This document shows, one piece after another, positions 4,268 to 56,937 of a stretch of 64,000 nucleotides of DNA (the first letter of the stretch is position 1; each line of letters begins with the position of its first letter). The position numbers and the translations under genes are program-made. The notes beneath the pieces were generated by a model. That model was not told the origin of the DNA. It did no database searches and worked only from the letters and a program-made list of their open reading frames with translations. The stretch is taken from positions 32,001 to 96,000 of IMG/VR virus record IMGVR_UViG_3300014203_000012; one strand, written 5' to 3'. The DNA comes from a virus. Taxonomy: Duplodnaviria; Caudoviricetes.

Positions 4268-4279
4268 AACACATGATTA
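4268..4279 (+). promoter_or_regulatory. Late-type promoter AACA-N6-TA (RCC1 copy 1)
   Basis: AACACATGATTA; an equivalent site precedes all four RCC1 genes. Confidence 0.7.
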
Positions 4280-4306
4280 AATATAAAAGAATAAGAGGTG
4301 TTTATA

Positions 4307-5155
4307 ATGGGGCAAAACTACCATTCATTAGTTTTATTAAACGATGGTACAGTAAAAGGATTTGGTTCTAATTATTATGGGCAATTAGGACTAGGTAATA
4401 ATACCGATAGCACTACTCCTACGTTAATACCTAGTCTAAGTAATGTAAAACAAATATCATGTGGTGTCAATTATACTTTAGTTTTACTTAATGATGGTAC
4501 AGTAAAAGGGTTTGGGCATAATGCTTATGGACAATTAGGATTAGGTAATACTACTACTACTATTAGTACTCCTACGTTAATACCTAGTCTAAGTAACGTA
4601 AAACAAATAGCATGTGGTGGTTATTATTCTTTAGTTTTATTAAACGATGGTACAGTAAAAGGATTTGGTCTTAATAGCAACGGTCAATTAGGATTAGGTA
4701 ATGTAGATACACCAAAGAGTACTCCTGTATTAATACCTAGTCTAACTAACGTAAAACAAATATCGTGTGGTAATAATTTTTCATTAGCTTTACTAAATGA
4801 TGGTACAGTAAAAGCGTTTGGGTATAATGTTCAAGGCGAATTAGGTTTAGGTAATGTTACATCCCCATATATGAGTCCTACGTTAATATCTAGTCTAACT
4901 AACGTAAACCAAATAGTTTGTGGTAATAATTTTTCATTAGCTTTACTAAATGATGGTACTGTAAAAGGATTTGGTCAGAATAGCAATGGTCAATTAGGTT
5001 TAGGTAATGTAGATACACCAAAGAGTACTCCTGTATTAATACCTAGTCTAAGTAATATAGTTTTATTATGGGATAATATAGTTCTATTAGTTATATTAAG
5101 AAAAAGATTTGTAATGTTTGTAACTGATACTAAATCAGCATATGGCATTAAATAA
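4307..5155 (+). CDS. RCC1/BLIP-II repeat beta-propeller protein, copy 1 (5 repeats)
   Basis: Five repeats of QIxCGxxHSLVLLNDGTVKGFGxNxxGQLGLGN. ATG at 4307 follows a GAGGTG RBS. Confidence 0.9.
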   Translation: MGQNYHSLVLLNDGTVKGFGSNYYGQLGLGNNTDSTTPTLIPSLSNVKQISCGVNYTLVLLNDGTVKGFGHNAYGQLGLGNTTTTISTPTLIPSLSNVKQIACGGYYSLVLLNDGTVKGFGLNSNGQLGLGNVDTPKSTPVLIPSLTNVKQISCGNNFSLALLNDGTVKAFGYNVQGELGLGNVTSPYMSPTLISSLTNVNQIVCGNNFSLALLNDGTVKGFGQNSNGQLGLGNVDTPKSTPVLIPSLSNIVLLWDNIVLLVILRKRFVMFVTDTKSAYGIK

Positions 5156-5156
5156 T

Positions 5157-5190
5157 ATAAGAGACTATTGCATTGCAATAGTCTCTTATA
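5157..5190. terminator. Bidirectional hairpin terminator
   Basis: tataagagactattgca-t-tgcaatagtctcttata between convergent genes. Confidence 0.8.
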
Positions 5191-5192
5191 TA

Positions 5193-5921
5193 TTATCCCA
5201 TTAATACTTTTTCTAAAGGAGAATTTACTTTCTTATCATTCATTGCAGCATGTACAATAGAATCATCAAAGTTTTCTGAAGTAAGGGCAGAATATGCACT
5301 AACCATCTTAGAAACATCTTTAACACTGATAGATTGGTATTCGTTCATGTTCTTAGAACCAGATAATCTAAATGGTGTATTTGGATCTTTTATTGCCCTA
5401 CAAAGTTCCGATATAACAACACCGAATATCTGTAGAGAAATACCATAACTATTACCGTTAAGATTCATATTGTCAACAAAATAATCTTGTAACACATCGT
5501 ATGGAATAGTGGTAGGGATATTACCAGTAATCACAAAGAGATTAATAAAATCTTCTACATTTTCAATCTCTTGTGGAACTTTAGTATCCACTATGATAGG
5601 ATCTCCTTTTTTAAACCTAAGAAGTCTATAGTCTTGTGTTGTAGAAGATCCGATAAGTTTAATTTCCTTAACCTTATCAACGGTATAAGGTTTAGTTAAA
5701 AACCTAGTAGGATAATGGAACTGTTTTAAAGGACCTTTCTTTCCACTCTTATCTTCTATGGAGTAATCTAGTATTCCTAATATATTGATATAATCACCGG
5801 CAACGAATGCAGTTTTAAGATCAAAATACTTCTCAGGAACATAGAAAACAAACTCTCCTTCTTGGTCGAATAGAATCGCATTGCCTTTCCGTTTTAAGAA
5901 CGGTGGTATTTTATTATCCAT
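5193..5921 (-). CDS. RNA polymerase beta' extreme C-terminal fragment (split subunit, probably virion RNAP)
   Basis: C-terminus FGVVISELCR...ISVKDVSKMVSAYSALTSENFDDSIVHAAM...SPLEKVLMG resembles the beta' C-terminal region (HIEVIVRQM...SFISAASFQE...KENVIVG). Confidence 0.6.
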   Translation of the reverse strand: MDNKIPPFLKRKGNAILFDQEGEFVFYVPEKYFDLKTAFVAGDYINILGILDYSIEDKSGKKGPLKQFHYPTRFLTKPYTVDKVKEIKLIGSSTTQDYRLLRFKKGDPIIVDTKVPQEIENVEDFINLFVITGNIPTTIPYDVLQDYFVDNMNLNGNSYGISLQIFGVVISELCRAIKDPNTPFRLSGSKNMNEYQSISVKDVSKMVSAYSALTSENFDDSIVHAAMNDKKVNSPLEKVLMG

Positions 5922-6586
5922 TAACTATGTCCTCCCATTTTCCAAATATCTAAAGATATCTTTCCTTCATATACAAGCGTTAACCATTGTTTCTCTGGGC
6001 TTATAGGAGTATCGCTTTTTTCTAATAATTTCAATCCAAGAGAATTCCTTGTTTTGTAATTAGCACCATGCTCAACTAAATATTTAGCGACTTCATAGTG
6101 CTCAAATCTACATGCAAATATATATCCCATTTCATCATTGATATTTGGATCTACATGTTTTTCTTCTATAAAATATTTAACTGCATCAAATATCCCATAA
6201 TGGCAAGCTTCTGTAAAAATCATACCTGTTTTACCATTAGGATCTACATTGTGAGTTTCAATTAGAAATAGTAATATATCATTGATATTCTTCTTATAAA
6301 TATTACCAAAACAAAATATCAATAAATCTTCAAGATTAATAGTTGTATTATTTTGTACAACTGCATTTACAACTTTTTTGAATAATCCAAAAGATAAATG
6401 AGTCGCTTGTTCAAGCTCTCTGTCTCCTAATTCAGCTGGATGTACTTTTATAATATACTCTATGGCAGGTATAAGATTTTCTTCTATAACGCGACTGTAT
6501 AAATCTTGTTTATGTAGATAATCTTTCTTACTAATTCCTTTACTGTATAAGAAACTATAAAATTGTTGTTCATTTTTTATTACCAT
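5921..6586 (-). CDS. Ankyrin-repeat-like protein
   Basis: EACHYGIFDAVKYFIEEKHVDPN and FACRFEHYEVAKYLVEHGANYK are ankyrin-type repeats. Confidence 0.75.
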   Translation of the reverse strand: MVIKNEQQFYSFLYSKGISKKDYLHKQDLYSRVIEENLIPAIEYIIKVHPAELGDRELEQATHLSFGLFKKVVNAVVQNNTTINLEDLLIFCFGNIYKKNINDILLFLIETHNVDPNGKTGMIFTEACHYGIFDAVKYFIEEKHVDPNINDEMGYIFACRFEHYEVAKYLVEHGANYKTRNSLGLKLLEKSDTPISPEKQWLTLVYEGKISLDIWKMGGHS

Positions 6587-6660
6587 TATACTTCCCCCCT
6601 ATTTATGTGTATACAAAAGAAAAAATAAAGGCTATGGATTAATCCATAGCCTTTTGTTTA

Positions 6661-7920: not shown

Positions 7921-7997
7921 TTATACAAAACCCTCCTCTATTATAAGTAATTTAATAAAATGTTAAGGCTACAGATTGCTCTGTAGCCTTCTATGAT

Positions 7998-9188: not shown

Positions 9189-9206
9189 TTTAATTTCCCC
9201 TTCTTT

Positions 9207-9989: not shown

Positions 9990-10063
9990 AAGAATAAACC
10001 TCCTTGTTATATTGATTATAGTACTGTCACGAAGGATATAAAAAATAAAAAGGGAGGATGCTA

Positions 10064-11206
10064 TTATGCATCCTCTTTTAAGTACTTAGCAAAATTAAGT
10101 CTCCTAAGAGCCTCAGACAATAGGTTAGAAGTATCTGTGTATATACCGCTGTGTTTTTCTTTCTCAGTTTCTACGAAAAGCAATATCATGATATATCTTT
10201 CTATATTTTTTATATTATCACGAATATTTTCCTTCTTAGTATTAACTGTGAAATTTGCGATATAATTAATTAGTGAAATTAATTTAGAGTTTGTAGATTT
10301 GATTTCTCCATAGTATTCAATAAATCTACAAATGTAACCTCTAAGTTTTATGTAATCGTATAGCTCATTATCATCGTATGTTTTAGTGCTGATGATAGTA
10401 TCTATAGTATTAATAATAAATATAATTGTATTAAGAAAATTTGCATTATACTTATTAGTGCAGTTTTTACTCATGCACTTGAATAGATCCTCTTCTGCAT
10501 ATTTGGTAAGCGTATAAATCGATGAGTCATTACATATTATATTTGTAGATGCCCCATTGATAAAAGAAAGTCTTTTGAGAGTGTATATTTTATTCTTCAA
10601 TACACCTTTATATTTTACGGCTTCATCCACTACACCCTTTCTTTCGGTTGGAGTATATGTAGATTCGGCTATATTGTAGTGAATATAATCTCCAAAGACA
10701 TTAAATCTTTCCGACTCCCAAATATCTACGTTTATTGAAGCGAAATTAACTAATCGGTTTAGAACTCTTATCGGTTCTACATATTGTGTATCGATAGTTG
10801 CTGCAATTTCTGTATTCATTTTTTTAATCTTCCCCCGCATAATGTATTCTTCATATATTTTATCATATTTCATATTGTTCAACGTTTCATAGATATATCT
10901 AATTAGATCACTATGGAACACGCAGACTCCTACTTTACGAAAAGTCTCTGAATGGTGTTTATCTCCAACTTTTATAGTTATAGTTCTATCAGAGTTAGAC
11001 TCATTGGATGTGATTACTATTATGCTGCCATCACTATTACATGGTTCTGACATTGGGATTGATGATACGAAGTCGTATAATACAATACTAAGGTTTATAC
11101 TACAATAGTTCATAAAATCTTCCAAAGTCAATTGTCTAGATAATTTATTATTAATATACACATCAATTTTGTCTTCATTAGATCTGAAAACAATCGATCG
11201 TGTCAC
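10064..11206 (-). CDS. Hypothetical protein; N-terminal domain paralogous to 11203..11607
   Basis: Probable GTG start at 11206 after a GGGGG RBS. Shares IxxYINNKL...MKYDKI with its neighbour. Confidence 0.65.
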   Translation of the reverse strand: MTRSIVFRSNEDKIDVYINNKLSRQLTLEDFMNYCSINLSIVLYDFVSSIPMSEPCNSDGSIIVITSNESNSDRTITIKVGDKHHSETFRKVGVCVFHSDLIRYIYETLNNMKYDKIYEEYIMRGKIKKMNTEIAATIDTQYVEPIRVLNRLVNFASINVDIWESERFNVFGDYIHYNIAESTYTPTERKGVVDEAVKYKGVLKNKIYTLKRLSFINGASTNIICNDSSIYTLTKYAEEDLFKCMSKNCTNKYNANFLNTIIFIINTIDTIISTKTYDDNELYDYIKLRGYICRFIEYYGEIKSTNSKLISLINYIANFTVNTKKENIRDNIKNIERYIMILLFVETEKEKHSGIYTDTSNLLSEALRRLNFAKYLKEDA

Positions 11207-11607
11207 CCTAAAACCCCCCATAGATTTTTAATCGAGTCTATTTTAAATATTTTATCATATTTCATGCGCACCATTGTATCGACGATAGATTTGATAATGT
11301 CGCAATAAAATATTTTCTCCCCAACTCCATCTAAAAATAGAGTTTCTGTTTCTGTTCCCACTGTTATATAAATAATAAAGTTTACTGAAGACTCGGTAGA
11401 TTGTATAGTAAAGGCAGATATTTTTATCTCCCCATCTACAATACACCCGCCAATATTTGACTGAGATACTAAAAAATTGTGTAAGTTTATATCAATAATA
11501 GGATTATTTGGAGTTATAAAAATATTTACTGGTATTTGGTTTATCAATTTATTATTAATATACGTTTCTATTTTATTTTTATTTTGCTTAAATACAAGAT
11601 ATATCAT
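11203..11607 (-). CDS. Hypothetical protein (single copy of the repeated ~120-aa domain)
   Basis: 134-aa ORF with a GGGGG RBS. Confidence 0.65.
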   Translation of the reverse strand: MIYLVFKQNKNKIETYINNKLINQIPVNIFITPNNPIIDINLHNFLVSQSNIGGCIVDGEIKISAFTIQSTESSVNFIIYITVGTETETLFLDGVGEKIFYCDIIKSIVDTMVRMKYDKIFKIDSIKNLWGVLG

Positions 11608-12691
11608 TTAATAACCCCCATAGATTTTTAATTGATTTTTCTTTATATAACTTTAAATATTTTAAGTCGTTTAGCTTTTCAAAAATTTCATCAAACCCAC
11701 TACTAGTTATACCTGTAGTATCGGGAAACATTACACTATTATGCCGATTTCCGGCTATCATTATCATAAGGTTATTTTTATTTTTATATTTAACAAGTAT
11801 GATATTTAATTTATCTAGATGGATTGTTGGGTAATTGTATCCTTTATCATGATTATATATAAGCTCGGATAGCGAGTCCATCACTCTAAAATTATCAAAG
11901 TTCTTTAACAAAATAGATGAGCAACTATTCGTTTTCTCATCATTAATGAAAGGAGCTATTTGACCATCTTCAGTTTTATAAAATCCAAGATAACTTACAC
12001 TTTTTATTTCTGGATCGTCGTATTTTACATATTTTGATAATCCATTTGGATCTGCTTTCATACGAATAGCATCTATTTCCTTTTCAAACAGTGATGTAAA
12101 TTCAGCATCTTTTACATTGTAATTGACAAGAGGTGAAATAATTTCATTAGCTAAAGTAACTGTTGTACAATCTATTCTAATAGATTTTAAAATAGTATTA
12201 GCTTTAGTATCAAGAGTGGTAATTAGAGTATTAAGCATAGTTTTATAATTTTCAGCAAATGTTTCTTTATCACAACATTCCGATTTCAAAGATTTAATTA
12301 TAAACTCATCTAAATATTTATGTATCAATCTACCTGAAAGTACACCATAATATCTGTTAAGCATTGGTCCTATATCAGACGTACGAAGAATTTCTTTAAA
12401 ATGTAATCTGAGAGATTTGTATACACCGTATTCTCCATCACCTTGAGACACAGTGGTATTTAATATTGTTATACGTGGAATATCAGTAAGATCTAATATA
12501 GGATAGTGTATACTATCATACTCCTGAGAACAAGAAGTTATTCTGTAATCTGGAGATTTACCAGAAATGTGTATATCGCGATATACAGGATTGCCATTTT
12601 TCATAATAACCAGGGTTGTTAAAATATTTCCATTCATAGTTGGTAATTTGAAATGTTTTTCTAATTCGCTTAGTTTTCTCATGTGTGACAT
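11588..12691 (-). CDS. Hypothetical early protein
   Basis: 367-aa ORF, AGGAG RBS, early-type promoter at 12761-12773. Confidence 0.7.
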   Translation of the reverse strand: MSHMRKLSELEKHFKLPTMNGNILTTLVIMKNGNPVYRDIHISGKSPDYRITSCSQEYDSIHYPILDLTDIPRITILNTTVSQGDGEYGVYKSLRLHFKEILRTSDIGPMLNRYYGVLSGRLIHKYLDEFIIKSLKSECCDKETFAENYKTMLNTLITTLDTKANTILKSIRIDCTTVTLANEIISPLVNYNVKDAEFTSLFEKEIDAIRMKADPNGLSKYVKYDDPEIKSVSYLGFYKTEDGQIAPFINDEKTNSCSSILLKNFDNFRVMDSLSELIYNHDKGYNYPTIHLDKLNIILVKYKNKNNLMIMIAGNRHNSVMFPDTTGITSSGFDEIFEKLNDLKYLKLYKEKSIKNLWGLLNDISCI

Positions 12692-23236: not shown

Positions 23237-23412
23237 TTTCAAAAACCCCCTAAGGTATATTTTATTTTATAAATATGTCCACAGTATAGCACCTGTAGTT
23301 TATTTAGATGTTTGGTAAATACAAACCTGTTAAAATCATACGATATTAATTTTTAATACAATGGCTACATTAATTTAATGAGCTATACGTATTGATAAAG
23401 GGGAGATTAGAG

Positions 23413-25506
23413 ATGTTTAATGGCAAATTAATGGAGAGATATACTGGAATACTAAAGAGGATTATGCCTTTGTCTATTCCGGCTTTAACAGACGAAGAGT
23501 TGGATGAGGCAATTCAATACTCAATTCAGAAAAGATTTAAGGATAGTGATTGCTCTATCCATAATAATTATAAACACAAAACGGTTAATACCACAATTGC
23601 ACAGCTTACAAACTATATCTTAGACAAAGAACCAATCATGACTTCTTATGGCTGTTTATTTACTAAACATGGTAAAGTAAAGAACCCACTGTATGACTTG
23701 ATTGAAGAGATTGTAACTATCAGGGATAAGTTTAAAAAGGAAATGTTTAAATATCCTAAAGGTAGTGATGAATACGAAAAATACTATCTATTGCAGTTAT
23801 TAGCCAAGGTCGACTCAAACGCCCTGTATGGTTGCTTAGGCAACTACAGTTCTATGTTTTACAACATTTATGTTGCCACCAGTATCACCCGCCAGGGTAA
23901 GTCCTGTATTTCTGCTTCGATCATGCTGTTTGAAGGGTTACTTGCAAACAATGTAAAATTCGGATCTCTTAATGAGATTATTACATTCATTGACAACACA
24001 AGAACTGAAAAGAGAACCTTTAATGACAATGATATTCTAGATAGAGAAATATCTCTTGCAGAATCTTATTGCAAAATTATGGGCACTTGTGGATATAACT
24101 GGATTCCTGATAAGAAAGACGCTTTACTAGTATGGGATATTATGAGTAGATTAACTCCACAAGATTTGACTAGGTTATATTATAAGAATAATATGTATGA
24201 GTTCTTTAACAATAGCCGAATGAATGCTCTTCTTATTAAGATCCTTTGCACACTGAAGCTCCCATTCTTAGACCCTAACAAACCACCAAAAGAAATAAAG
24301 GCCGATATGCAACAACTAATCGCATATGTAAAAGAGTATGTGTATTACAGTTACCAAATCATTGATAAACTTGAGAGAGTAGAAACGATGATGCGTGATA
24401 TCGTATTAGTTACAGATACTGACTCTTGTATCATTAGTTTAGAGCCATGGTATAGGTTTGTTTTGGAAAAGACAAAGGGTGTCGAAATGAATATCAAGCA
24501 TGAGATAATTGATATAGTCGAGTATATGGAAATGGATTCTTTTGGGGATAGAGAGTTACTTTCTATCGTTGAACGAGTTGACCATTCATACGATTACGAT
24601 TTCTACAACGAAGAGCTTATCGAACAGGCAAGAATGATTAATCCAGTACAGATGATCCCACAGGATGGTCTGAGACATTCTATCATAAATATCATGTCGT
24701 ATTGCGTAAGTGAACTTATCTTGGATTACATGTATAAATATACGGTAAACCATAACTCTGCAGCACCAAATAGAAAGTGTCTTCTTATTATGAAGAATGA
24801 GTATCTATTCAAGAGTATTCTTCTTACTGATGGTAAAAAGAATTACGCATCTATACAAGAAATACAAGAAGGTAATATTGTTCCAAAAGATGCATCTCTA
24901 GCAATATCTGGTCTGCCAATTGATAAGGTTGGTATACCGCAATCTACAGCTAAAGCTCTTAAAAAGATTCTTTATGAAGATATTTTAAACTCTGATGGTA
25001 TAGATCAGATTAAAACTCTTAAAGGAATAGCGATTCTTGAAAGAAAGATCTTTAATTCTATTGAGAATGGGGAAACTATGTATCATAAACCTGCTAGAAT
25101 CAAATCTATCGGTACATATGATATGCCATTCAGAATTCAAGGTATAAAAGCATCCGTCGCATACAATGCTTTGAGGGATGAACATGAAGAAGCTATTGAT
25201 TTGGAAAAGAGAAATAGTATTCTTATCATTAAGGTAAATATAAACAAGAAGAATATTGAAGGTCTTAAAATATCTAATCCTAGTAAGTTTGAACAGATGA
25301 CCAAGCTTCTAGATACTAAAGAGTTTAACGGAGATGCAATAGCAGTAGCTATTCCGTCTAGTAATTCTATTCCTAAATGGCTAATTGAGTTTATCGATTA
25401 CACCACAATCATTCATGACAATTTAACTAACTTTCCACTAGAGTCTATTGGAATTACACGTCTTAATAATAAAAATATAACATATTCCAATATATTGGAA
25501 TTATAA
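23413..25506 (+). CDS. Family B DNA polymerase, catalytic part of a split polymerase
   Basis: Motif B AKVDSNALYG, motif C VTDTDS, KKNYA. No exonuclease domain or DxxSLYP motif A recognisable. Confidence 0.85.
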   Translation: MFNGKLMERYTGILKRIMPLSIPALTDEELDEAIQYSIQKRFKDSDCSIHNNYKHKTVNTTIAQLTNYILDKEPIMTSYGCLFTKHGKVKNPLYDLIEEIVTIRDKFKKEMFKYPKGSDEYEKYYLLQLLAKVDSNALYGCLGNYSSMFYNIYVATSITRQGKSCISASIMLFEGLLANNVKFGSLNEIITFIDNTRTEKRTFNDNDILDREISLAESYCKIMGTCGYNWIPDKKDALLVWDIMSRLTPQDLTRLYYKNNMYEFFNNSRMNALLIKILCTLKLPFLDPNKPPKEIKADMQQLIAYVKEYVYYSYQIIDKLERVETMMRDIVLVTDTDSCIISLEPWYRFVLEKTKGVEMNIKHEIIDIVEYMEMDSFGDRELLSIVERVDHSYDYDFYNEELIEQARMINPVQMIPQDGLRHSIINIMSYCVSELILDYMYKYTVNHNSAAPNRKCLLIMKNEYLFKSILLTDGKKNYASIQEIQEGNIVPKDASLAISGLPIDKVGIPQSTAKALKKILYEDILNSDGIDQIKTLKGIAILERKIFNSIENGETMYHKPARIKSIGTYDMPFRIQGIKASVAYNALRDEHEEAIDLEKRNSILIIKVNINKKNIEGLKISNPSKFEQMTKLLDTKEFNGDAIAVAIPSSNSIPKWLIEFIDYTTIIHDNLTNFPLESIGITRLNNKNITYSNILEL

Positions 25507-25521
25507 GGGAGAAGATTTATT

Positions 25522-25812
25522 ATGAAATGCATGAAGGAAATTAGACGGGATAATAAAAATCTTATTATCCCTCCCACAACTGCTGAAAATTTTCAAAAAG
25601 TATTAGATTATCATAAATTATCATTTTTCGAAGATATTAAAAGCTATAATGAAAACCTAAAAAAGTCTATTGAAATTCGGAGAAAAATGCTAACGGAATC
25701 AACAATATACCCAAATCCAGAAGACCGTAAAATTGCAATAGAAGCTTCTCTAGAAATATTAATTTTTGAACAGAAACATTTGCAGCGTATTATTGATAGA
25801 CATACCATATAG
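25522..25812 (+). CDS. Hypothetical protein
   Basis: 96 aa, AGGGAG RBS. Confidence 0.55.
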   Translation: MKCMKEIRRDNKNLIIPPTTAENFQKVLDYHKLSFFEDIKSYNENLKKSIEIRRKMLTESTIYPNPEDRKIAIEASLEILIFEQKHLQRIIDRHTI

Positions 25813-25877
25813 TGTAAATATACCATCTTATATTTAAACACATCAATAACTATATAAGAATATAAGAGGTGTTTATA

Positions 25878-27017
25878 ATGGGATTAAATAATCATTCATT
25901 AGTATTAATCAATGATGGTATAGTAAAAGGATTTGGATATAATGGTGAAGGAGAATTGGGTTTGGGTAATACAACAACCCCATATACCTCCCCTATATTA
26001 ATACCTAATATAAGTAACGTAAAACAAATATCGTGCGGTCAATCTCATTCGCTATTATTACTTAATGATGGTACGGTAAAATCATTTGGAAGTAATAGTA
26101 ACGGTGAATTGGGATTGGGTATTACGACTCAACAAAACACTCCTATATTAATATCAGGGTTAAGTAATGTAAAACAAGTAATAGGAGGGCAATCTTATTC
26201 ATTAGTTTTACTAAATAACGGTACAGTATATGGATTTGGTCGTAATAGTAGTGGTCAATTAGGATTAGGTAATACTATCTCTCCGTATACTAGCCCTACG
26301 TTAATACCTAGTCTAACTAATGTAAAACAAATATCATGTGGTAGTAGTCATTCATTAGCATTACTAAACGATGGTACAGTATATGGATTTGGTGGTAATT
26401 ACTATGGTCAATTAGGGTTAGGTAATAATACATCTATAATTAATACTCCTACATTAATATCAGGGATGAGTAATGTAAAACAAATATCATGTGGTACTAA
26501 TCATTCATTAGCTTTACTAACAGATGGTACGGTAAAATCATTTGGTCGTAATATATATGGTAATTTAGGTTTAAATAATACTAATGATTACAATAGACCC
26601 ACGCTAATACCTAGTCTAAGTGACGTATCTCAAATAACATGTGGCGCAGATCATTCATTAGTTTTACTAAATGATGGTACAGTAAAAGGATTTGGTGCTA
26701 ATCAGTTTGGTAATTTAGGATTAGGTAATACTACGTACCAATATAATAGTCCTACATTAATAACTGGTCTAACTAACGTAAAACAAATATCAGGTGGTGG
26801 CAATTATTCAGTAGTTTTACTAAATGATGGTACAGTAAAAGGATTTGGTGATAATACATATGGTCAATTAGGTTTAGGCAATACTACATCACCATGTACT
26901 ACCCCTACTTTAATAACTACTCTAAGTAACGTGGTATTATTGTGGGATAATATAGTAGTTCGAACAAGATTTGTAATGTTTGTAGATATTAACAAAGTTA
27001 GTTATTCTAAAATATAA
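25878..27017 (+). CDS. RCC1/BLIP-II repeat beta-propeller protein, copy 2 (7 repeats)
   Basis: Seven RCC1 repeats. AACACATCAATA promoter at 25837-25848. GAGGTG RBS. Confidence 0.9.
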   Translation: MGLNNHSLVLINDGIVKGFGYNGEGELGLGNTTTPYTSPILIPNISNVKQISCGQSHSLLLLNDGTVKSFGSNSNGELGLGITTQQNTPILISGLSNVKQVIGGQSYSLVLLNNGTVYGFGRNSSGQLGLGNTISPYTSPTLIPSLTNVKQISCGSSHSLALLNDGTVYGFGGNYYGQLGLGNNTSIINTPTLISGMSNVKQISCGTNHSLALLTDGTVKSFGRNIYGNLGLNNTNDYNRPTLIPSLSDVSQITCGADHSLVLLNDGTVKGFGANQFGNLGLGNTTYQYNSPTLITGLTNVKQISGGGNYSVVLLNDGTVKGFGDNTYGQLGLGNTTSPCTTPTLITTLSNVVLLWDNIVVRTRFVMFVDINKVSYSKI

Positions 27018-28282: not shown

Positions 28283-29539
28283 ATGTTCCAAGACGCTAAA
28301 ACCTATGCCGATGTGTCCAAGGAGGAACAAGATGTTTACACTAAAGAGGTAAATCTGCTTGATATCATCACAGTTCTTGAGAACCAAGGGATCTCTATTG
28401 ATTACAAAGACAGTCTTGCGGTGACTTGTTCTAAAATGAAAAAGATCTTATTTGATCGCGTTTCGGCTGCGATGTTTACCAAGAAAGCATTGTCGGTTTC
28501 CGATCAAGAGCTTACCTCTAAAATACAAGAATTTCTTGGTGAAGCAAATGATATCTTTATGCTAAGTGGCTATTGCATGAAAATCAATTTAGTTGCAAAA
28601 ACAGTAAAAATATTTGATGGCGACAGATTGCTTATGACTTATCAAGATGGTAAAATGGAACTGAGTGCGGCATTATCTAAAGAAGAAGTTCAAGATATTA
28701 AAGATTCTAATCCTGATGTACCAATAGTGGATACACCGCTGCTTATCTCAGAGGTTATAGTTTTACCACCATTGGAAAAAACAGTAACTAAACCATTGCA
28801 GAAGTCTATTGTAGTAGACTCTACTGTGGTTGATGAAACTCCTAAATCTACAGAGATTGAAATTAATCGAGGCGGAGAAAAATTCAAAGTAGTTGATGGA
28901 AAATTCATTAGTAAAGATGATAAAACTAAAGCTACTGAGCAGCAGTTTATTGACGCTGCGAATGCTCGTGCTGCACAAATAATGGCCAAAACTCCTAAAT
29001 CTGCAGAGATTGAAATTAATCGCGATGGAGAAAAATTCAAAGTAGTTGATGGAAAATTCATTAGTAAAGCTAATAAATCTAAAGCTACTGAGCAGCAGTT
29101 TATTGACGCTGCGAATGCTCGTGCTGCACAAATAATGGCCAAAACTGCTAGAAATGCTAGTGCCACAATTGCAAAGAATAAAAGTGTAGTAGAAGGCGTG
29201 AAAGTTATTAATAATCCTGAAACTACAATCACGTTAGAGAACACTCAGCAGATAGCCACAAGAATTGATATTGATCTGTTAAAGAAATATATCAATATCG
29301 ACAGTCTGAAAAATGCTCCAGCTGAGCTCAAAGCTAAAATTATGGCTAGGCTGGAAGGTGCAATAAAAACAGTATTGAAGGCTGGTGGTTTCGACAAATT
29401 TCTTAATCTTAAGAATGCCAAATATGGTCTTTCTAAATCTACGTTTTTCGATAAGGATAGATATATTTTGTTTAATGGTAAGCATTATATGAAGTTTATC
29501 GATGCAGAGAACTTTGAATTCGATAATAAGCTTAATTAA
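28283..29539 (+). CDS. Hypothetical early protein with an internal 51-aa duplication
   Basis: 418 aa, AGGAG RBS, terminator ggggagat-t-atctcccc+T at ~29546. Confidence 0.7.
   Translation: MFQDAKTYADVSKEEQDVYTKEVNLLDIITVLENQGISIDYKDSLAVTCSKMKKILFDRVSAAMFTKKALSVSDQELTSKIQEFLGEANDIFMLSGYCMKINLVAKTVKIFDGDRLLMTYQDGKMELSAALSKEEVQDIKDSNPDVPIVDTPLLISEVIVLPPLEKTVTKPLQKSIVVDSTVVDETPKSTEIEINRGGEKFKVVDGKFISKDDKTKATEQQFIDAANARAAQIMAKTPKSAEIEINRDGEKFKVVDGKFISKANKSKATEQQFIDAANARAAQIMAKTARNASATIAKNKSVVEGVKVINNPETTITLENTQQIATRIDIDLLKKYINIDSLKNAPAELKAKIMARLEGAIKTVLKAGGFDKFLNLKNAKYGLSKSTFFDKDRYILFNGKHYMKFIDAENFEFDNKLN
28836..29146 (+). repeat. In-frame tandem duplication, 2 x 153 bp
   Basis: TPKSxEIEINRxGEKFKVVDGKFISK...ATEQQFIDAANARAAQIMAK occurs twice with near-identical DNA. 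Confidence 0.9.
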
Positions 29540-50288: not shown

Positions 50289-50293
50289 TATAA

Positions 50294-51349: not shown

Positions 51350-51374
51350 ATTAATTCCTCCTAATATTTTTATT

Positions 51375-51767: not shown

Positions 51768-51786
51768 AATAATTCCCCCTAATATT

Positions 51787-51912: not shown

Positions 51913-52009
51913 TATATATTTCCTCCTTAAGATGCAATTATATTATTGCTCATCTTTATAATATATAACTCAAAGAAGATTACGGTATAACTTAGTTATA
52001 CCGTATATA

Positions 52010-53149
52010 TTATTTACAAGCATAAGTAGATTTAGTATCAGCCAAATACATTATAAATCTTTTTCTTAGAATAATATTATCCCATAATAAAGATATATTA
52101 CTTAAACTAGATATTAAAGTAAGAGTAGTATATGGCGCAGATGATGTAAATCCTAATTGACCATTATAATTATTACCAAATGACTTTACGGTACTATCAT
52201 TTAATAATACTAAAGAATGCCCCATACCACATGATATTTGTTTTATATTAGTTAAACTAGAGATTAGTATAGGAGTAGATTGCGGAGTAACTTTATTACC
52301 TAATCCTAATTCACCGTATTGATTATCACCAAATCCCATTAATGTACTATCATTTAGTAATACTAAACAATGAGATTGACCACATGCTATTTGGTTTACG
52401 TTAGTCAAACTAGGTATTAACGTAGGAGCGAGATATGTCGTAGTATTTCCTAAACCTAATTGGCCATAACCATTCTGCCCACATGATTTTACAGTACCAT
52501 CGTTTAGTAATACTAAAGAATGATTACCACCACATGCTATTTGTTTTACGTTACTTAGACTAGATATTAAAGTAGGAGTAGTATATGGAGTAGTGATGTT
52601 ACCTAAGCCTAATTGCCCATTAGTATTCATACCAAATGATTTTACTGTACCATCATTTAGTAATGCTAAAGAATGACTACCACCACATGATATTTGTTTT
52701 ACGTTAGATAGACTAGGTATTAATGTAGGAGTAGTATATCCTACATTAGTATTGCCCAATCCCAATTGACCATATGTATTCTGCCCACATGCTTTTACTG
52801 TACCATCATTTAATAAAACTAAAGAATGATAACCGCCGCATGCTATTTGTTTTATGCTACTCAGCCCAGATATTAACGTAGGAGTATTATATGGTGATGT
52901 AGTATTACCTAAACCTAATTGACCATTATAATTATTACCAAATGACTTTACGGTACTATCATTTAATAATACTAAAGAATGTTGGGCTCCACATGATATT
53001 TGTTTTACGTTAGATAAATTAGGTATTAATGTAGGAGTACTAATTGGGTTGACTACATTACCTAAACCTAATTGTCCTTGATCGTTACTACCAAATGCTT
53101 TTATTGTTCCATCATTTAATAAAACTAAAGACTGAGTATTATTTGACAT
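52010..53149 (-). CDS. RCC1/BLIP-II repeat beta-propeller protein, copy 3 (7 repeats)
   Basis: Seven repeats. AACATCTAAGTA promoter at 53182-53193. GAGGTG RBS. Confidence 0.9.
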   Translation of the reverse strand: MSNNTQSLVLLNDGTIKAFGSNDQGQLGLGNVVNPISTPTLIPNLSNVKQISCGAQHSLVLLNDSTVKSFGNNYNGQLGLGNTTSPYNTPTLISGLSSIKQIACGGYHSLVLLNDGTVKACGQNTYGQLGLGNTNVGYTTPTLIPSLSNVKQISCGGSHSLALLNDGTVKSFGMNTNGQLGLGNITTPYTTPTLISSLSNVKQIACGGNHSLVLLNDGTVKSCGQNGYGQLGLGNTTTYLAPTLIPSLTNVNQIACGQSHCLVLLNDSTLMGFGDNQYGELGLGNKVTPQSTPILISSLTNIKQISCGMGHSLVLLNDSTVKSFGNNYNGQLGFTSSAPYTTLTLISSLSNISLLWDNIILRKRFIMYLADTKSTYACK

Positions 53150-53253
53150 TGCAATCACCTCTTATTTGTTTCTTTTATACTTACTTAGATGTTGGGGTAT
53201 ATTGATATTACAATAAAAAATAAGGCACTTTATACAAGTGCCTTATATATTAA

Positions 53254-53604
53254 TTATTTCATTTTATGCATAAGAGCAGTCTGTTCAGCTAATGATAGGA
53301 ACATAGGTCTAAACCATGCTTCAGGGCAATTATCGTCAATATATTTTAACGCAATTGGTTTTGCAGCAAGTTGAATCATTGCTACTATTGGAGCTAGACC
53401 GTAATCTTTAGCTTTGTCATCCCATCTACATCTAAACTCCTTCATAGATTCGTCTGCTACAATTAGTTTAAATACATCATTGACTTGGGTTTCAAACATC
53501 CCGTTTTTATGTAAGAAGAGCTGTAGCTCTTCCCCTAACGTTAAGTTCTCACCTATCGCTTTTAATTTAATCGTGGTTTGTTTTAATACATTACTTTCAT
53601 TCAT
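53254..53604 (-). CDS. Hypothetical protein
   Basis: 116 aa, GGGAGGG RBS. Confidence 0.6.
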   Translation of the reverse strand: MNESNVLKQTTIKLKAIGENLTLGEELQLFLHKNGMFETQVNDVFKLIVADESMKEFRCRWDDKAKDYGLAPIVAMIQLAAKPIALKYIDDNCPEAWFRPMFLSLAEQTALMHKMK

Positions 53605-53606
53605 AA

Positions 53607-55604
53607 TTAATCCCTCCCAAATCCTATTTTTATTTTATCTAAAGCTTTATTCATATCAGATATATCATCGGAACTTATAGTAAATATTTCATCTGCAGTC
53701 ATATCAATATATTTATTATCTTCTGATAATCTAGTGGCTTGACGCATAATCGCTTGTTCTAACAAAGTACGTACAAATCTACCATTGCCAAAATCTTTAG
53801 TGCTCATCGCAGTAGATATTTGTATTTCTGCAAAAGCTAACGCCTCTTTGGTAAGGGTAAACTTTTCTTTCTTTGCCATATACGATAATAAATGCATAAG
53901 CTCAGTTTTACTATAATTATCAAATTTAATATGAAACCCTATTCTACTCCTAAGACCAGGATTTGTATCTAGAAACTTTTCCATTTTATCTGGATAACCG
54001 GCTAGGATAATTATAGTATCATCTTTAACTTTATCCATTTCTTCTACTAGAGTATTTATTGCTTCATCTCCAAACATACCAGCTTTATAATCGACCAATG
54101 CATATGCTTCATCTATGAATAGAATTCCTCCTTTGGCAGATTTTATAGCAGCTTTAGTTTTTACTGCAGTATGCCCAACATACTCACCTACTAAACTAGA
54201 TCTTCCGACTTCTACGATTTTACCATTTGTTATAATATCACTTTCTTTAAGAATATTTGCTAATAACCTAGCTACTGTTGTTTTAGCAGTTCCTGGATTG
54301 CCATAGAATACCATATGTCTACATAGGGTAGACGTGGATATTCCTTTTTCTAAATATACTTTTTGCATCTTAACGTATGATAGAATTTGATTAACTGTAT
54401 CTTTGACATTACCAAGCCCTATCATACTATTTAATCTTGCCATAGGGTCGAATGATAATCCTTTCTTAATATCAAGGCTATTTATTTTGTTATATCCCAT
54501 AGACATGATAAGATGATTTGTCTTCCATTTAGTATATAGAACTTCTAAATCTGTGGGTGTGTAAACAAGTTCTTTTAATGATTCACCTCCGTACTTTTTA
54601 AATCCATCAGATTTGGCTTTTGTATTTAAAAATTTCATAGCAATTTCAGTATTAACATTCTTAGGTAGTAAAGGAACATATATAATATTATTGTCTTTTG
54701 CAATTCCTAATATATTATCTTTATCATGAAAGTCTTTTACTGAAATAATAGTTAATACAGATGAGGAATATTCTGCACTTAATTGTATTATTTTTTGAAT
54801 AGTGGCTTCTGAAGTTGTTCCTCTAAATCTATTAAGTTCAGGAGTATTTGCATCTTCTATTTTATTAATTTCAAATATTATCGTATTTCCTGTACCTATA
54901 CGATATGCCATATTAAGATCTTTGCTACTAATATCAGAAGCGTCAACAAAATTAACACATACTGATACTCCTCTATTATTTTTATGAAGTGAATGGACTA
55001 ATGCCATTGGAATAGTATGTCTCTCTTCATGTCTTATAACATAATGAACTGGATGACCATGAAACGATTTAAATTTATTAGCCTTTATTCGATTAAGCTC
55101 ATCTGTAAAATCTCCTAATAAATCTATATTATATATAGAATTAATATTTATATCTTCCACTTCAGTGGTCGATGAGTTGTTATTCCCTCTAACTCTTCGC
55201 ATAATAGTTTGTACTGAAGATGAATAATCGTCAATGCCGATTAATTTATTAACCATATCAGAGCCTATAATTTTTATATTATACGAATCGGGATGAACAG
55301 AAAAGGTTGAAAATATGAATTCATCTATATATTTATATACATTTTTATACATAATACTGTATGATGGAGTTGTTTTGTTGTCTATTGTATAAAACGCATA
55401 TACATTAAATTCAGTATTAGTAAAATTGACAGATGATAATATAGGTAGGATATATGCATTCTTATTATACATAGAAATAGAAAGTGCGTCATTGGTAATT
55501 TCTACGACCTCAGGTATATAATTTTTATCAGTAGACCCGTCCTCTTCTAATAATGGGTGTTTGACTGGTTCATTAAATTTTACATGTACTTCAAATAATA
55601 ACAT
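53607..55604 (-). CDS. AAA+ ATPase, CbbX/CfxQ/SpoVK family
   Basis: HMVFYGNPGTAKTT, LVGEYVGHTA, GGILFIDEAY, ILAGY, NPGLRSR, FGNGRFVR. Early promoter at 55645-55657. Confidence 0.88.
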   Translation of the reverse strand: MLLFEVHVKFNEPVKHPLLEEDGSTDKNYIPEVVEITNDALSISMYNKNAYILPILSSVNFTNTEFNVYAFYTIDNKTTPSYSIMYKNVYKYIDEFIFSTFSVHPDSYNIKIIGSDMVNKLIGIDDYSSSVQTIMRRVRGNNNSSTTEVEDININSIYNIDLLGDFTDELNRIKANKFKSFHGHPVHYVIRHEERHTIPMALVHSLHKNNRGVSVCVNFVDASDISSKDLNMAYRIGTGNTIIFEINKIEDANTPELNRFRGTTSEATIQKIIQLSAEYSSSVLTIISVKDFHDKDNILGIAKDNNIIYVPLLPKNVNTEIAMKFLNTKAKSDGFKKYGGESLKELVYTPTDLEVLYTKWKTNHLIMSMGYNKINSLDIKKGLSFDPMARLNSMIGLGNVKDTVNQILSYVKMQKVYLEKGISTSTLCRHMVFYGNPGTAKTTVARLLANILKESDIITNGKIVEVGRSSLVGEYVGHTAVKTKAAIKSAKGGILFIDEAYALVDYKAGMFGDEAINTLVEEMDKVKDDTIIILAGYPDKMEKFLDTNPGLRSRIGFHIKFDNYSKTELMHLLSYMAKKEKFTLTKEALAFAEIQISTAMSTKDFGNGRFVRTLLEQAIMRQATRLSEDNKYIDMTADEIFTISSDDISDMNKALDKIKIGFGRD

Positions 55605-55662
55605 AATTCATTTCTCCTTTAGTTTTTATTTTATATTGCTCATTTATATAATATATAACTAA

Positions 55663-55713
55663 AAGAAAAGAATATAACGGTATAGCATAATGCTATACCG
55701 TTTATTTTATTTA
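55663..55713. repeat. 51-bp direct repeat, copy 1 (contains terminator)
   Basis: aagaaaagaatataacggtatagcataatgctataccgtttattttattta, identical to 56938-56988. Confidence 0.9.
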
Positions 55714-56858
55714 ATAGCATATACCGATTTAGTATCAGTTCTAAACATTACAAATATATTTCTTAGGATAACTAATAATGTATAATTATCCCATAATAAA
55801 GTTACATTACTTAGATTAGGTATTAAAGTAGGAGTGGTATATGGGGTTACTACGTTACCTAAACCTAATTGTCCATAAGTATTATAACCAAATGCTTTTA
55901 CTGTACCATCATTTAGTAATGCTAATGAATGGAGACTACCACATACTATTTGGTTTACGTTACTTAGACTAGGTATTAAAGTAGGAGTAGTATATGATAT
56001 TGTAGTATTACCTAAACCTAATTCACCATCACTATTATATCCAAATGCTTTTACAGTACCATCGTTTAATAAAACTAAAGAATAATATACCCCTCCTGCT
56101 ATTTGTTTTACATTACTTAGATTAGGTATTAATGTAGGAATGGTACTGTTAGCAGTATTACCTAAACCTAATTGTCCATAATCATTCCTGCCAAATCCTT
56201 TTACTGTACCATCATTTAGTAAAACTAAAGAATGAGCATTACCACATGATATTTGGTTTACGTTAGTTATATTAGGTATTAATGTAGGACTCATATATGG
56301 AGTAGTTACGTTACCTAAACCTAATTGACCTTGAGCATTATAACCAAACGACTTTACTGTACCATTATTTAATAATACTAAAGAATGACTACTACCGCAT
56401 GATATTTGTTTTACGTTAGTTAGACTAGGTATTAGCGTAGGACTAGTAATTGGAGTAGTTACATTACCTAAACCTAATTGACCATTAATATTATAACCAA
56501 ATCCTTTTACTGTACCATCATTAAGTAAAACTAAAGAATGACTATCACCACATACTACTTGTTTTACGTTACTTAGACTAGGTATTAACGTAGGACTATT
56601 TTGTTGTGTGGTATTACCTAAACCTAATTGTCCATTACCATTATAACCAAATACTTTTACTGTACCGTCATTTAGTAAAATTAAAGAATGATTACCTCCA
56701 CATGATATTTGTTTTGCATTACTTAGATTAGGTATTAAAGTAGGAGTAGTAATTGGTGTTGTAGTATTACCTAAACCTAATTGACCTTGAGTATTCATAC
56801 CAAATCCTTTTACTGTACCATCGTTTAGTAAAACTAAAGAATGATAATTTAATCCCAT
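55707..56858 (-). CDS. RCC1/BLIP-II repeat beta-propeller protein, copy 4 (7 repeats)
   Basis: Seven repeats; AACACCTAGATA promoter at 56894-56905. Confidence 0.9.
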   Translation of the reverse strand: MGLNYHSLVLLNDGTVKGFGMNTQGQLGLGNTTTPITTPTLIPNLSNAKQISCGGNHSLILLNDGTVKVFGYNGNGQLGLGNTTQQNSPTLIPSLSNVKQVVCGDSHSLVLLNDGTVKGFGYNINGQLGLGNVTTPITSPTLIPSLTNVKQISCGSSHSLVLLNNGTVKSFGYNAQGQLGLGNVTTPYMSPTLIPNITNVNQISCGNAHSLVLLNDGTVKGFGRNDYGQLGLGNTANSTIPTLIPNLSNVKQIAGGVYYSLVLLNDGTVKAFGYNSDGELGLGNTTISYTTPTLIPSLSNVNQIVCGSLHSLALLNDGTVKAFGYNTYGQLGLGNVVTPYTTPTLIPNLSNVTLLWDNYTLLVILRNIFVMFRTDTKSVYAIK

Positions 56859-56937
56859 TATAAAACACCTCGTATTCTTTTATATTTAATACTTATCTAG
56901 GTGTTGATATATATATATATTTAATACAACAAAATAT

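What the first reader, a model, noticed from the sequence alone, without database searches (positions are those of the whole stretch)
4268..56905. Dispersed family of four RCC1/BLIP-II propeller cassettes with constant scaffold and hypervariable loops
Seen: four genes (4307, 25878, 53149, 56858 starts) hold 26 repeats of ~153-156 bp that are highly similar even at DNA level. Variation is concentrated at CG-x-x-(H/Y/F), FG-x-N-x-x-G and GN-x(4-6)-(T/S)P, which are loop positions. Blades are mosaics. In copy 1, repeats 3 and 5 share NSNGQLGLGNVDTPKSTPVLIPSL and repeats 4 and 5 share CGNNFSLALLNDGTVK. Copy 3 has an identical ~67-bp block at ~52153-52219 and ~52915-52981. Copies 1 and 4 share GYNxQGxLGLGNVTxPYMSPTLI. 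Each gene is an autonomous unit (AACA-N6-TA promoter plus a conserved aaga.ta.gaggtg leader) inserted among unrelated core genes. Inference: a recombination/gene-conversion-diversified binder repertoire, expressed late. It could act as a virion adhesin or as inhibitors of host enzymes (BLIP-II is a known beta-lactamase inhibitor with this fold).
Basis: partly seen in the sequence, partly recalled or inferred. Interest (0 to 1): 0.8.

Follow-up and report, generated by a model that had tools for sequence, protein, structure and literature searches.

The report
Phage RCC1 propeller gene family
An uncultured giant phage carries seven scattered, separately switched genes for look-alike propeller-shaped proteins whose frames are kept alike by recombination while a few loop residues differ, so they are probably a set of binding proteins, a pattern known elsewhere but with no function measured here.

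Summary
The window has four RCC1-repeat genes with 5, 7, 7 and 7 blades of 150-153 bp. The 184-kb AR9/PBS1-like phage contig has seven such genes (43 blades), and the scan noted the family before on the neighbouring window (e1-5860878).

- **Variation.** It sits in three loop segments. By alignment these match the dimer-interface residues of UVR8.
- **Blade relationships.** Blades are about 75% identical in DNA whether compared in register, out of register or within a gene. They cluster by phage lineage, not by blade position. That is concerted evolution or re-amplification.
- **Mosaic tracts.** Only two within-gene tracts (68 nt and 52 nt) exceed a column-preserving null. Exchange between genes is not shown, and a PHI test is negative.
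- **Selection.** dN/dS at the variable columns is 1.05, and 1.5 at the five most variable columns (chosen post hoc). Diversifying selection is not demonstrated.
- **Gene units.** Six of seven genes carry the AR9 late-promoter motif, all seven a family-specific leader, and six a terminator hairpin. Copy A lies between genes that are adjacent in a relative. Copy D is bracketed by a 57-nt direct repeat. They behave like morons.
- **Function.** It is inferred only: late-made binders, perhaps on the virion.

This is a new variant of a known kind.

The parts
4268..4279 (+). AACA-N6-TA late-promoter motif of copy A
   Evidence: It starts 39 nt before the ATG. The 39 nt before the ATG are identical to those of copy G, 145 kb away.
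4307..5155 (+). RCC1 gene A: 5 blades plus a 25-30-aa tail
   Evidence: The Atlas model has pTM 0.86.
4694..4745 (+). 52-nt tract identical to 5000-5051 (blades A3 and A5)
   Evidence: Reached in 7 of 500 shuffles.
5157..5189 (.). Hairpin after gene A, placed to end the convergent virion-protein gene as well
   Evidence: inverted self-match. Sequence reading only.
25837..25848 (+). AACA-N6-TA motif of copy B
25878..27017 (+). RCC1 gene B: 7 blades plus tail, directly after the DNA polymerase gene
52010..53149 (-). RCC1 gene C: 7 blades plus tail
52152..52219 (-). 68-nt tract identical to 52914-52981 (end of C6 into C7, and end of C1 into C2)
   Evidence: Reached in 0 of 500 shuffles.
53182..53193 (-). 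AACA-N6-TA motif of copy C
55707..56858 (-). RCC1 gene D: 7 blades plus tail
56894..56905 (-). AACA-N6-TA motif of copy D
55657..55713 (.). 57-nt direct repeat holding a terminator hairpin. Its second copy is at 56932-56988, so the pair brackets cassette D.
   Evidence: (96% identity, spacing 1275 nt)
56932..56988 (.). Upstream copy of the repeat that brackets D. It starts at the stop codon of the 143-aa ORF 56986-57417.

Best explanation
The contig carries seven moron-like genes. Each has its own AR9-type late promoter (one is imperfect) and a family-specific leader, and six have their own terminator. Each encodes a stand-alone RCC1-type beta-propeller that ends in a conserved tail of 25-30 residues.

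The 43 blades are kept alike in sequence by recombination between repeats. This takes the form of unequal exchange and short conversion tracts, mostly within a gene, and over longer times it homogenises all blades of a lineage.

About a dozen residues per blade are free to differ. They lie in the A-B loop and the long C-D loop, which sit on the same face of the propeller. Each protein therefore shows a different surface on one constant frame.

I read the family as a set of binding proteins made late in infection. Most likely they act as accessory adhesins on or with the virion. The repeat structure and its mode of evolution are shown. Late transcription, binding and virion association are inferred.
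For: Fold and family:
- Pfam and solved-structure matches.
- The Atlas model of copy A has pTM 0.86 and TM 0.91-0.93 onto RCC1 clusters.

Copies: seven genes, 43 blades.

Concerted evolution:
- DNA identity is 0.747 in register (n=70), 0.744 out of register (n=420) and 0.754 within a gene (n=105).
- On a tree of 78 blades from five lineages, the genome label needs 6 changes against 32.8 in shuffles (0 of 300 as low). The position label needs 50 against 47.7.
- Scaffold residues specific to a lineage recur in all its blades.
- Codon choice is specific to each column and far from the genome's usage. Examples: Val column 7 is GTA in 39 of 39 (genome 42%). Pro column 31 is CCT in 41 of 42 (genome 38%).

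Recombination: the 68-nt and 52-nt tracts, and genes of 5 and 3 blades.

One face: the HMMER alignment to UVR8 puts CG-x-x-H on the W-R of the GWRHT motif. It puts FG-x-N-x on the WGWGD segment. GWRHT lies at the dimer interface (PMC4501546, passages).

Promoter: the motif precedes 30 of 142 ORFs, against 1 of 142 and 6 of 142 in the two controls. The AR9 consensus comes from PMC5312081 (passages). RNA polymerase beta-like genes are present.

Moron behaviour:
- Copy A lies between the sheath gene and a virion-protein gene that are adjacent in relative G001.
- G001's own two copies lie at other sites.
- D is bracketed by a 57-nt repeat.

Adhesin context in other phages:
- RCC1 repeats hit PHROGs labelled tail protein.
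- In Clostridioides phage LIBA2945 a 1627-aa RCC1 protein lies between tail-fibre genes.
- Bacterial structural neighbours carry surface-anchor domains such as SLH, Por_Secre_tail, fn3, PKD and Big_2.
- In G001 the RCC1 proteins share a C-terminal module with lectin-like proteins.
Against: - No structure could be predicted, so the placing on one face is not measured.
- dN/dS at the variable columns is about 1. That fits plain lack of constraint.
- PHI finds no recombination signal among blades.
- Exact tracts between genes are within the null.
- The 25-aa tail shows no detectable homology to the module of the relatives (hhalign probability 0.1).
- The tail occurs in no other protein of the contig, so nothing links it to the virion.
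- In phAPEC6 the RCC1 genes are coloured apart from the 62 virion proteins found by mass spectrometry (figure legend). The table itself may say more.
- No RNA run holds the stretch.
- The contig is a metagenome assembly. Repeat genes of this kind are known to misassemble from short reads (bioRxiv 10.1101/2025.01.13.632504, abstract and passages).
Confidence: 0.55

Rival explanations
1. A neutral paralog family. One blade was amplified to a seven-blade gene and the gene was copied several times in a short burst. Since then the scaffold has been held by folding constraints and the loops have drifted. There is no continuing exchange and no selection for diversity.
For: - dN/dS is 1.05 at the 13 variable columns.
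- PHI is negative.
- Tracts between genes are within the null.
- Equal identity in and out of register is what a burst would give.
- New propellers are continually amplified from single blades, and RCC1/BLIP-II makes up 10% of the highly repetitive set (PMC9218822, passages).
Against: - Five lineages share the same seven-blade architecture, N-terminal strand and LWD closure, yet each has its own scaffold residues in all blades. The seven G002 blades form one clade inside G001+G002 (96% support). A single old burst cannot give that.
- The 68-nt and 52-nt tracts have sharp ends.
- Nonsynonymous difference at the five core columns is 0.378. That exceeds the synonymous difference of 0.247 in the ten closest blade pairs.
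Confidence: 0.25
2. Intracellular inhibitors or decoys of host proteins, such as defence or envelope enzymes. They would work as BLIP-II does on beta-lactamase and would not be part of the virion.
For: - BLIP-II chains match at E 1.1e-11 to 1.4e-11.
- The proteins are stand-alone, with no anchoring domain.
- There is no room for a signal peptide, because the first residues already form a propeller strand (sequence reading).
- Copies B, C and D sit among replication genes.
Against: - HERC2 and UVR8 match far better than BLIP-II.
- BLIP-II is a secreted protein (PMC9218822, passage).
- A late promoter is a poor fit for host takeover, unless the proteins are packaged.
- No defence or counter-defence library was searched.
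Confidence: 0.15
3. DNA-condensing or inner-body proteins, as the database name 'regulator of chromosome condensation' suggests and as was proposed for phAPEC6.
For: PHROG and record annotations carry that name. The phAPEC6 paper raises the idea (PMC7247149, passage).
Against: - The name is inherited from eukaryotic RCC1, and the paper itself gives no data.
- A structural DNA-organising role does not predict seven paralogs that differ on one face.
- In phAPEC6 the RCC1 genes are not marked as virion proteins.
Confidence: 0.05
4. Part of the detail comes from short-read metagenome assembly of repeats. This would cover the 5-blade and 3-blade genes, the 6-blade variant and the identical tracts.
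For: - The only run holding the stretch covers it at depth about 3-5, in fragments.
- The 6-blade variant of copy G comes from a 1,228-bp contig and lacks exactly one of two blades that are 91% identical.
- Short reads fail on such repeats in Podospora.
Against: - Both copies of each identical tract are present, so they were not collapsed.
- Exact repeats are at most 68 nt, shorter than the usual final k-mers. That figure for k-mers is my own knowledge.
- All seven genes keep frame, tail, promoter and unique flanks.
Confidence: 0.1

Closest known systems
[quoted passage not shown]
   Same: - Propeller repeats are kept nearly identical by concerted evolution.
- A few hypervariable positions lie on the interaction surface.
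- Repeat number varies.
- Several paralogous genes are involved.
(bioRxiv 10.1101/2025.01.13.632504, abstract and introduction passages.)
   Different: - The fold is WD40, not RCC1, in a fungal immune receptor with effector and NACHT domains.
- Repeats there are 80-100% identical, against 67% in protein and 75% in DNA here.
- Diversifying selection is established there and is not established here.
Highly repetitive RCC1/BLIP-II propellers (Pereira and Lupas 2022, PMC9218822)
   Same: It is the same fold lineage. Near-symmetric blades are ascribed to recent amplification, and such proteins are found in bacteria and viruses (passages).
   Different: That survey describes single proteins. I found no mention of phage there (0 occurrences of 'phage'). 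It does not describe dispersed families with their own promoters.
Multi-copy RCC1-like genes of jumbo coliphage phAPEC6 and relatives
   Same: A jumbo phage with many RCC1-like paralogs: eleven, of unknown function (PMC7247149, passage). Related Escherichia and Salmonella jumbo phages match P0004 at 26-33% identity.
   Different: It is a different phage lineage with a far weaker match. I did not analyse its blades, so I cannot say whether they are homogenised.
Solved RCC1-like domains: HERC2 RLD, UVR8, RPGR, RCC1
   Same: They match at E 1e-31 to 1e-54 over most of the length, with seven blades of about 51 residues.
   Different: The blades of those proteins are much less alike. They have no tail of this kind. 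None of their functions (GEF, UV-B sensing, ubiquitin ligase) is implied here.
Phage morons
   Same: An autonomous promoter-gene-terminator unit inserted between genes that are adjacent in a relative. The concept is recalled from Juhala et al. 2000. I did not read that paper here.
   Different: Classical morons are single accessory genes of temperate phages, transcribed from host-type promoters. Here one family has been inserted seven times, under the phage's own late promoter.

Membership tests
RCC1-like repeat beta-propeller (Pfam PF00415, PF13540, PF25390) | Repeat and domain models matched above the curated cut-offs | tested here: met
   all four window proteins. RCC1 scores 194-284 bits (cut-off 21.7). 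WD40_RLD scores 221-410 bits (cut-off 150).
RCC1-like repeat beta-propeller (Pfam PF00415, PF13540, PF25390) | Seven blades that close into a ring | tested here: inconclusive
   Five of the seven genes have 7 blades. A has 5 and F has 3. Ring closure could not be modelled. The Atlas model of A lies at TM 0.91-0.93 on larger RCC1 proteins.
BLIP-II (beta-lactamase inhibitor protein II) | Specific sequence similarity to BLIP-II | tested here: inconclusive
   E 1.1e-11 to 1.4e-11 over about 130 residues. That is far weaker than HERC2 or UVR8 (1e-50 to 1e-54).
BLIP-II (beta-lactamase inhibitor protein II) | Secreted protein that inhibits beta-lactamase | not testable with these tools
   No signal-peptide tool was available. 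The N-terminus starts inside the first propeller strand.
AR9-type late (non-virion RNA polymerase) promoter | AACA-N6-TA/G upstream of the gene, with the last base as transcription start | tested here: met
   Motif present in 6 of 7 genes; F has TACA. It is enriched before ORFs: 30 of 142 against 3.3% expected. The consensus is from PMC5312081. The transcription start itself was not testable because no RNA run holds the stretch.
Repeats with high internal conservation under concerted evolution (HNWD-like) | Repeats cluster by lineage or gene, not by position | tested here: met
Repeats with high internal conservation under concerted evolution (HNWD-like) | Hypervariable sites under diversifying selection | tested here: inconclusive
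   ratio 1.05 for 13 columns. Ratio 1.5 for 5 columns chosen post hoc (p about 0.01); all pairs are saturated.
Repeats with high internal conservation under concerted evolution (HNWD-like) | Exchange of repeats between paralogous genes | tested here: not met
   the longest exact run between genes is 45 nt (reached in 76 of 500 shuffles). PHI is not significant.
Diversity-generating retroelement target | Reverse transcriptase and template repeat in the genome | tested here: not met
   no PF00078 match in the contig, which is 75% complete. The positive controls matched.
C-terminal module phrog_21039 of the relatives' RCC1 proteins | Homology of the tail to the module | tested here: not met
   hhalign probability 0.1; tblastn with the module finds only the LWDN stretch, at E 0.9 or worse.
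Moron | Own promoter and terminator, inserted between genes that are adjacent in a relative | tested here: met
   Copy A. Copy D: a flanking 57-nt repeat. Copies B, C, E, F and G have no comparable synteny test.

The most novel reading that the evidence does not exclude
The seven cassettes form a phage-borne repertoire that diversifies by recombination. Blades, with their loop residues, are reshuffled within genes and occasionally between them. A phage population would then carry many propeller surfaces on one frame, and so change what it binds (host surface or host defence proteins) faster than point mutation allows. That would be a viral counterpart of the fungal HNWD receptors. The terminator duplications would mark how the cassettes spread through the genome.
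Probability: 0.15. Interest if true: 0.8.

Novelty: new variant of a known kind. Interest (0 to 1): 0.45.

Why it matters
Giant phages often carry several RCC1-like genes that are annotated by name only. This case shows how such a family evolves: the frame is homogenised, the loops stay variable, and the genes are inserted as self-contained late units. It also gives a concrete set of proteins to test for binding. If they prove to be adhesins or binders of host proteins, the constant frame with loop positions that tolerate change would interest both phage host-range biology and binder engineering. If the loops are merely unconstrained, the family is an ordinary example of repeat amplification.

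Tried and rejected
- **Structure prediction.** It was closed, so no model, no fold search and no geometric mapping of variable residues were possible. I used alignment to solved chains and the Atlas's own model scores instead.
- **Genomic context.** I obtained the context of relatives through the search for related loci, the genome search and the fetch from genomes.
- **PHI test** on 38 blades and 93 informative sites. The observed value was 1.35-1.36 against a permuted 1.31, with 883-953 of 1000 permutations at or below the observed value. No signal. The test is conservative here because fast sites are clustered.
- **Reads.** One DNA run, from a landfill metagenome and kept as contigs, holds 0.51 of the words. 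No RNA holder is listed. When laid, depth was about 0-11 per bin. There were 63 pieces, 31 of them at least 99% alike. The three joints had sides of 21-33 letters and are best read as cross-matches between paralogous blades. Nothing firm on blade shuffling or on assembly.
- **DGR.** No reverse transcriptase.
- **Tail elsewhere.** Its motifs occur only in the seven RCC1 proteins.
- **Tail versus the relatives' module.** No homology by hhalign. I had favoured this reading and I drop it.
- **The module against other libraries.** No credible hit in solved structures (best E 0.2), in the Atlas (TM at most 0.50) or in Pfam.
- **AAA ATPase gene as a synteny probe.** No relative in viral contigs or in G001.
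- **Near-identical DNA.** The megablast of 23392-27017 against phages found none.
- **Microdiversity.** The variants over 90% identical number only three: two single substitutions (one in the scaffold, one in a loop) and one loss of a blade. That is too few to judge.
- **Not done.** I did not analyse the blades of the phAPEC6 or Clostridioides phage RCC1 proteins. Supplementary tables of the papers were closed. [quoted passage not shown]

Full report
**What the window is.** The 64-kb window is bases 32001-96000 of a 183,919-base IMG/VR virus contig rated 75% complete. It encodes:
- a divergent family-B DNA polymerase whose best cultured relatives are AR9, PBS1 and kin at 27% identity;
- split RNA-polymerase beta-like subunits, a major head protein, terminase, tail sheath, primase and a chaperonin.

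G+C is 29-37%. It is therefore an uncultured jumbo phage distantly related to AR9/PBS1. The only sequencing run that holds the stretch is a landfill metagenome.

**The observation.** Four ORFs translate into RCC1-repeat proteins. Pfam matches RCC1, RCC1_2 and the RCC1-like domain far above their cut-offs.
- Tandem Repeats Finder reports four arrays of period 153 with 4.8, 6.9, 6.8 and 6.9 copies.
- Parsing by the LLNDGT anchor gives 5, 7, 7 and 7 blades of 49-51 residues, so the count of 26 is right.
- A search of the whole contig finds three more genes outside the window. Two have 7 blades and one has 3. The total is seven genes and 43 blades.
- All seven end in the same tail (LLWDN, a hydrophobic run, RFVMF, TDTKS-x-Y-x-x-K). 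This tail occurs in no other frame of the contig.

**Where the variation lies.** In the 43-blade alignment, entropy is:
- about 3 bits at columns 12, 14 and 15 (FG-x-N-x-x-G) and at columns 47 and 48 (CG-x-x-H);
- 1.2-2.4 bits across columns 24-30 (the GN...TP loop);
- below 1 bit at most other columns, with five columns invariant.

By the strand order of RCC1 repeats, CG-x-x-H is the A-B loop and the other two segments lie in the long C-D connection. In an antiparallel four-stranded blade both are on the same face. The strand order is my knowledge of the fold and was not computed here. The HMMER alignment to UVR8 agrees. The x-x of CG-x-x-H aligns with the W-R of the GWRHT motifs. FG-x-N-x aligns with the WGWGD segment. 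GWRHT supplies the tryptophans and arginines of the UVR8 dimer interface (PMC4501546, passages read). The residue numbers W94, D96 and D107 are recalled, not shown by a call.

**How the blades are related.**
- Mean DNA identity between blades is 0.747. The closest pairs are A3-A5 and G5-G6 at 0.91 and D3-G2 at 0.90.
- Among the five 7-blade genes, identity is 0.747 in register between genes (n=70), 0.744 out of register (n=420) and 0.754 within a gene (n=105). Shuffling blade positions reaches the in-register value in 827 of 5000 trials.
- Codon choice at scaffold columns shows the same (0.717, 0.725, 0.737). So do the residues of the variable columns (0.305, 0.299, 0.310). Only a slight excess within genes appears, reached in 39 of 2000 shuffles for codons.
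- So there is no orthology by position.
- Codon choice is fixed per column well beyond the genome's bias. GTA is used in 39 of 39 Val at column 7. ATA is used in 42 of 43 Ile at column 34. CCT is used in 41 of 42 Pro at column 31, although CCA is the genome's commoner Pro codon. The likeness is therefore inherited in the DNA. It is not protein-level convergence.

**Relatives.**
- The best hits outside the contig are RCC1 proteins of other large viral contigs.
- One is G001, 236 kb and 95% complete, whose polymerase is 51% identical. It has two such genes.
- In G001, G002, P0010 and P0015 the proteins share the architecture seen here: the same N-terminal strand, seven blades, and an LWD or LHD closure.
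- Each lineage nevertheless has its own scaffold residues in all seven blades, for example GQCGTG and QLTLYTIP in G001 and G002.
- Blade identity is 0.67-0.77 within a lineage and 0.45-0.62 between lineages. Between lineages it is 0.536 in register and 0.534 out of register.
- On a tree of 78 blades the genome label needs 6 changes against 32.8 in shuffles (0 of 300 as low). The position label needs 50 against 47.7. The seven G002 blades form one clade with 96% support.
- This is the signature of concerted evolution, or of repeated re-amplification from one blade. Mechanistically both are the same kind of repeat recombination.

**Tests of recent exchange.**
- I shuffled codons within columns as the null. 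The longest exact run is then 40.5 +/- 4.0.
- The 68-nt run in C is never reached. The 52-nt run in A is reached in 7 of 500 shuffles. The 45-nt run between C and E is reached in 76, and the 41-nt run in A in 217.
- Runs of 30 nt or more number 32, against 14.6 +/- 5.0 in shuffles.
- Both tracts that stand out are within a gene and have sharp ends.
- A PHI test on the blade alignment is negative.
- Exchange between genes is therefore not demonstrated. One hint remains: copies A and G share 39 identical bases before the ATG, covering promoter and leader.
- A database variant of copy G lacks exactly one blade, one of the 91%-identical pair G5/G6. It comes from a 1,228-base contig and may be an assembly collapse.

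**Selection.**
- Over all 903 blade pairs the scaffold has pN 0.12 and pS 0.35. The 13 variable columns have pN 0.49 and pS 0.51. The five most variable have pN 0.58 and pS 0.44. These values are near saturation.
- In the ten closest independent pairs the ratios are 0.21 (scaffold), 1.05 (13 columns) and 1.51 (five columns). Against the synonymous difference of all codons the last is 1.53, Fisher p 0.0097. But the sites were picked for being variable.
- The loops are at least unconstrained. Positive selection is possible but not shown.

**The gene units.**
- AACA-N6-TA lies 39-64 nt before the ATG in six of the seven genes. F has TACA.
- In AR9 this motif is the late promoter, with the last base as the transcription start (PMC5312081, passages).
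- In this contig it starts 15-100 nt upstream of 30 of 142 ORFs, where 3.3% is expected. It occurs in 1 of 142 control windows inside ORFs and in 6 of 142 antisense windows.
- In the window as a whole it is under-represented: 52 sites against 78 +/- 8.6.
- The leader AAGAGGTG occurs 10 times in the contig. Other late genes use GGAGG. The unit that was copied therefore includes the 5' untranslated region.
- Six genes are followed by a G+C-rich hairpin.
- Copy A lies between the tail-sheath gene and a virion-protein gene that are adjacent in G001. G001's own two copies lie between genes that are adjacent here, or separated by other genes.
- Cassette D is bracketed by a 57-nt direct repeat that holds the terminator of the upstream gene. 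E has a similar repeat of about 46 nt.
- The cassettes behave as morons, gained at different places in each lineage.

**Function.** Nothing was measured.

Pointers to a binding role at the virion surface:
- RCC1 repeats match PHROGs labelled tail protein.
- In Clostridioides phage LIBA2945 a 1,627-residue RCC1 protein sits between tail-fibre genes, ahead of the lysis genes.
- The bacterial proteins whose models lie closest to copy A carry SLH, Por_Secre_tail, fn3, TIG, PKD or Big_2 domains.
- In G001 and G002 the RCC1 proteins end in an 85-residue module (phrog_21039). The same module also ends small proteins without RCC1 repeats.
- That module is found in 281 protein clusters. In 8 of the 10 long members I scanned it follows Laminin_G_3, F5/8 type C or SPRY domains (some hits below the curated cut-off), in one a propeller, and one had no hit.
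- In a Clostridium tetani phage it lies next to a discoidin-domain gene, just before the lysis genes.

Pointers against:
- The tail of the proteins studied here is not detectably related to that module.
- In phAPEC6, which has eleven RCC1-like genes, those genes are drawn apart from the virion proteins (PMC7247149, passages and legends).

I therefore give the binder reading about even odds and the virion-adhesin version less.

**What is known already.**
- Highly repetitive RCC1/BLIP-II propellers are a recognised class (PMC9218822).
- Multi-copy RCC1-like genes in a jumbo phage are in print (PMC7247149).
- The combination of homogenised propeller repeats with a few hypervariable surface positions across paralogs is the defining trait of the fungal HNWD genes (bioRxiv 10.1101/2025.01.13.632504).
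- My literature searches for RCC1 with jumbo phage (2 papers) and for RCC1 with bacteriophage, virion and mass spectrometry (6 papers) found no analysis of blade evolution in a phage family.
- An earlier follow-up of this scan reached a similar description from the neighbouring window (e1-5860878). I tested its points independently.

**Verdict.** This is a real feature, well described by known processes, with its function open. It is a new variant of a known kind.

Noticed in passing
window 55657-55713 and 56932-56988; contig 138,4xx and 139,7xx for copy E: Cassettes D and E are each bracketed by a direct repeat of 46-57 nt that contains the terminator hairpin of the upstream gene. The repeat at D begins at that gene's stop codon and also supplies the last Lys codon and the stop of D. 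It may be a scar of how the cassettes were inserted.
   Followed up: partly
window, whole: AACA-N6-TA is under-represented overall (52 sites against 78 +/- 8.6 in shuffles), yet it sits before 30 of 142 ORFs of the contig. This looks like avoidance of spurious late promoters.
   Followed up: partly
window 28836-29150, inside ORF 28283-29539 (+): A separate tandem repeat of period 153 (2.1 copies, 95% matches) lies in an unannotated 418-aa ORF. It is unrelated to the RCC1 blades.
   Followed up: no
L019, L020, L022, L021 (G001 and G002) and 281 clusters: An uncharacterised C-terminal module of about 85 residues (phrog_21039; YLIKQ..YYSIK...ETFKPI) ends proteins with RCC1, ConA-like, discoidin, SPRY or other propeller domains. 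It has no Pfam family and no solved relative.
   Followed up: partly
G001:C1:230057-233422 (L024, L025): The DNA polymerase of relative G001 matches in two pieces about 1.3 kb apart, and the first piece has stops inside. This may be an intervening element, or a split gene.
   Followed up: no
P0278 (ENA contig of 1,228 bases): A variant of copy G lacks exactly one blade (51 residues) of the near-identical pair G5/G6. It is either a polymorphism in blade number or an assembly collapse.
   Followed up: partly
window 10064-11221 and 11588-12691 (-): G001 has a lectin-like module protein and an RCC1 gene next to the terminase gene. At that place this phage has two unrelated ORFs (385 and 367 aa) with no PHROG match. 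It looks like a variable slot in the late region.
   Followed up: no
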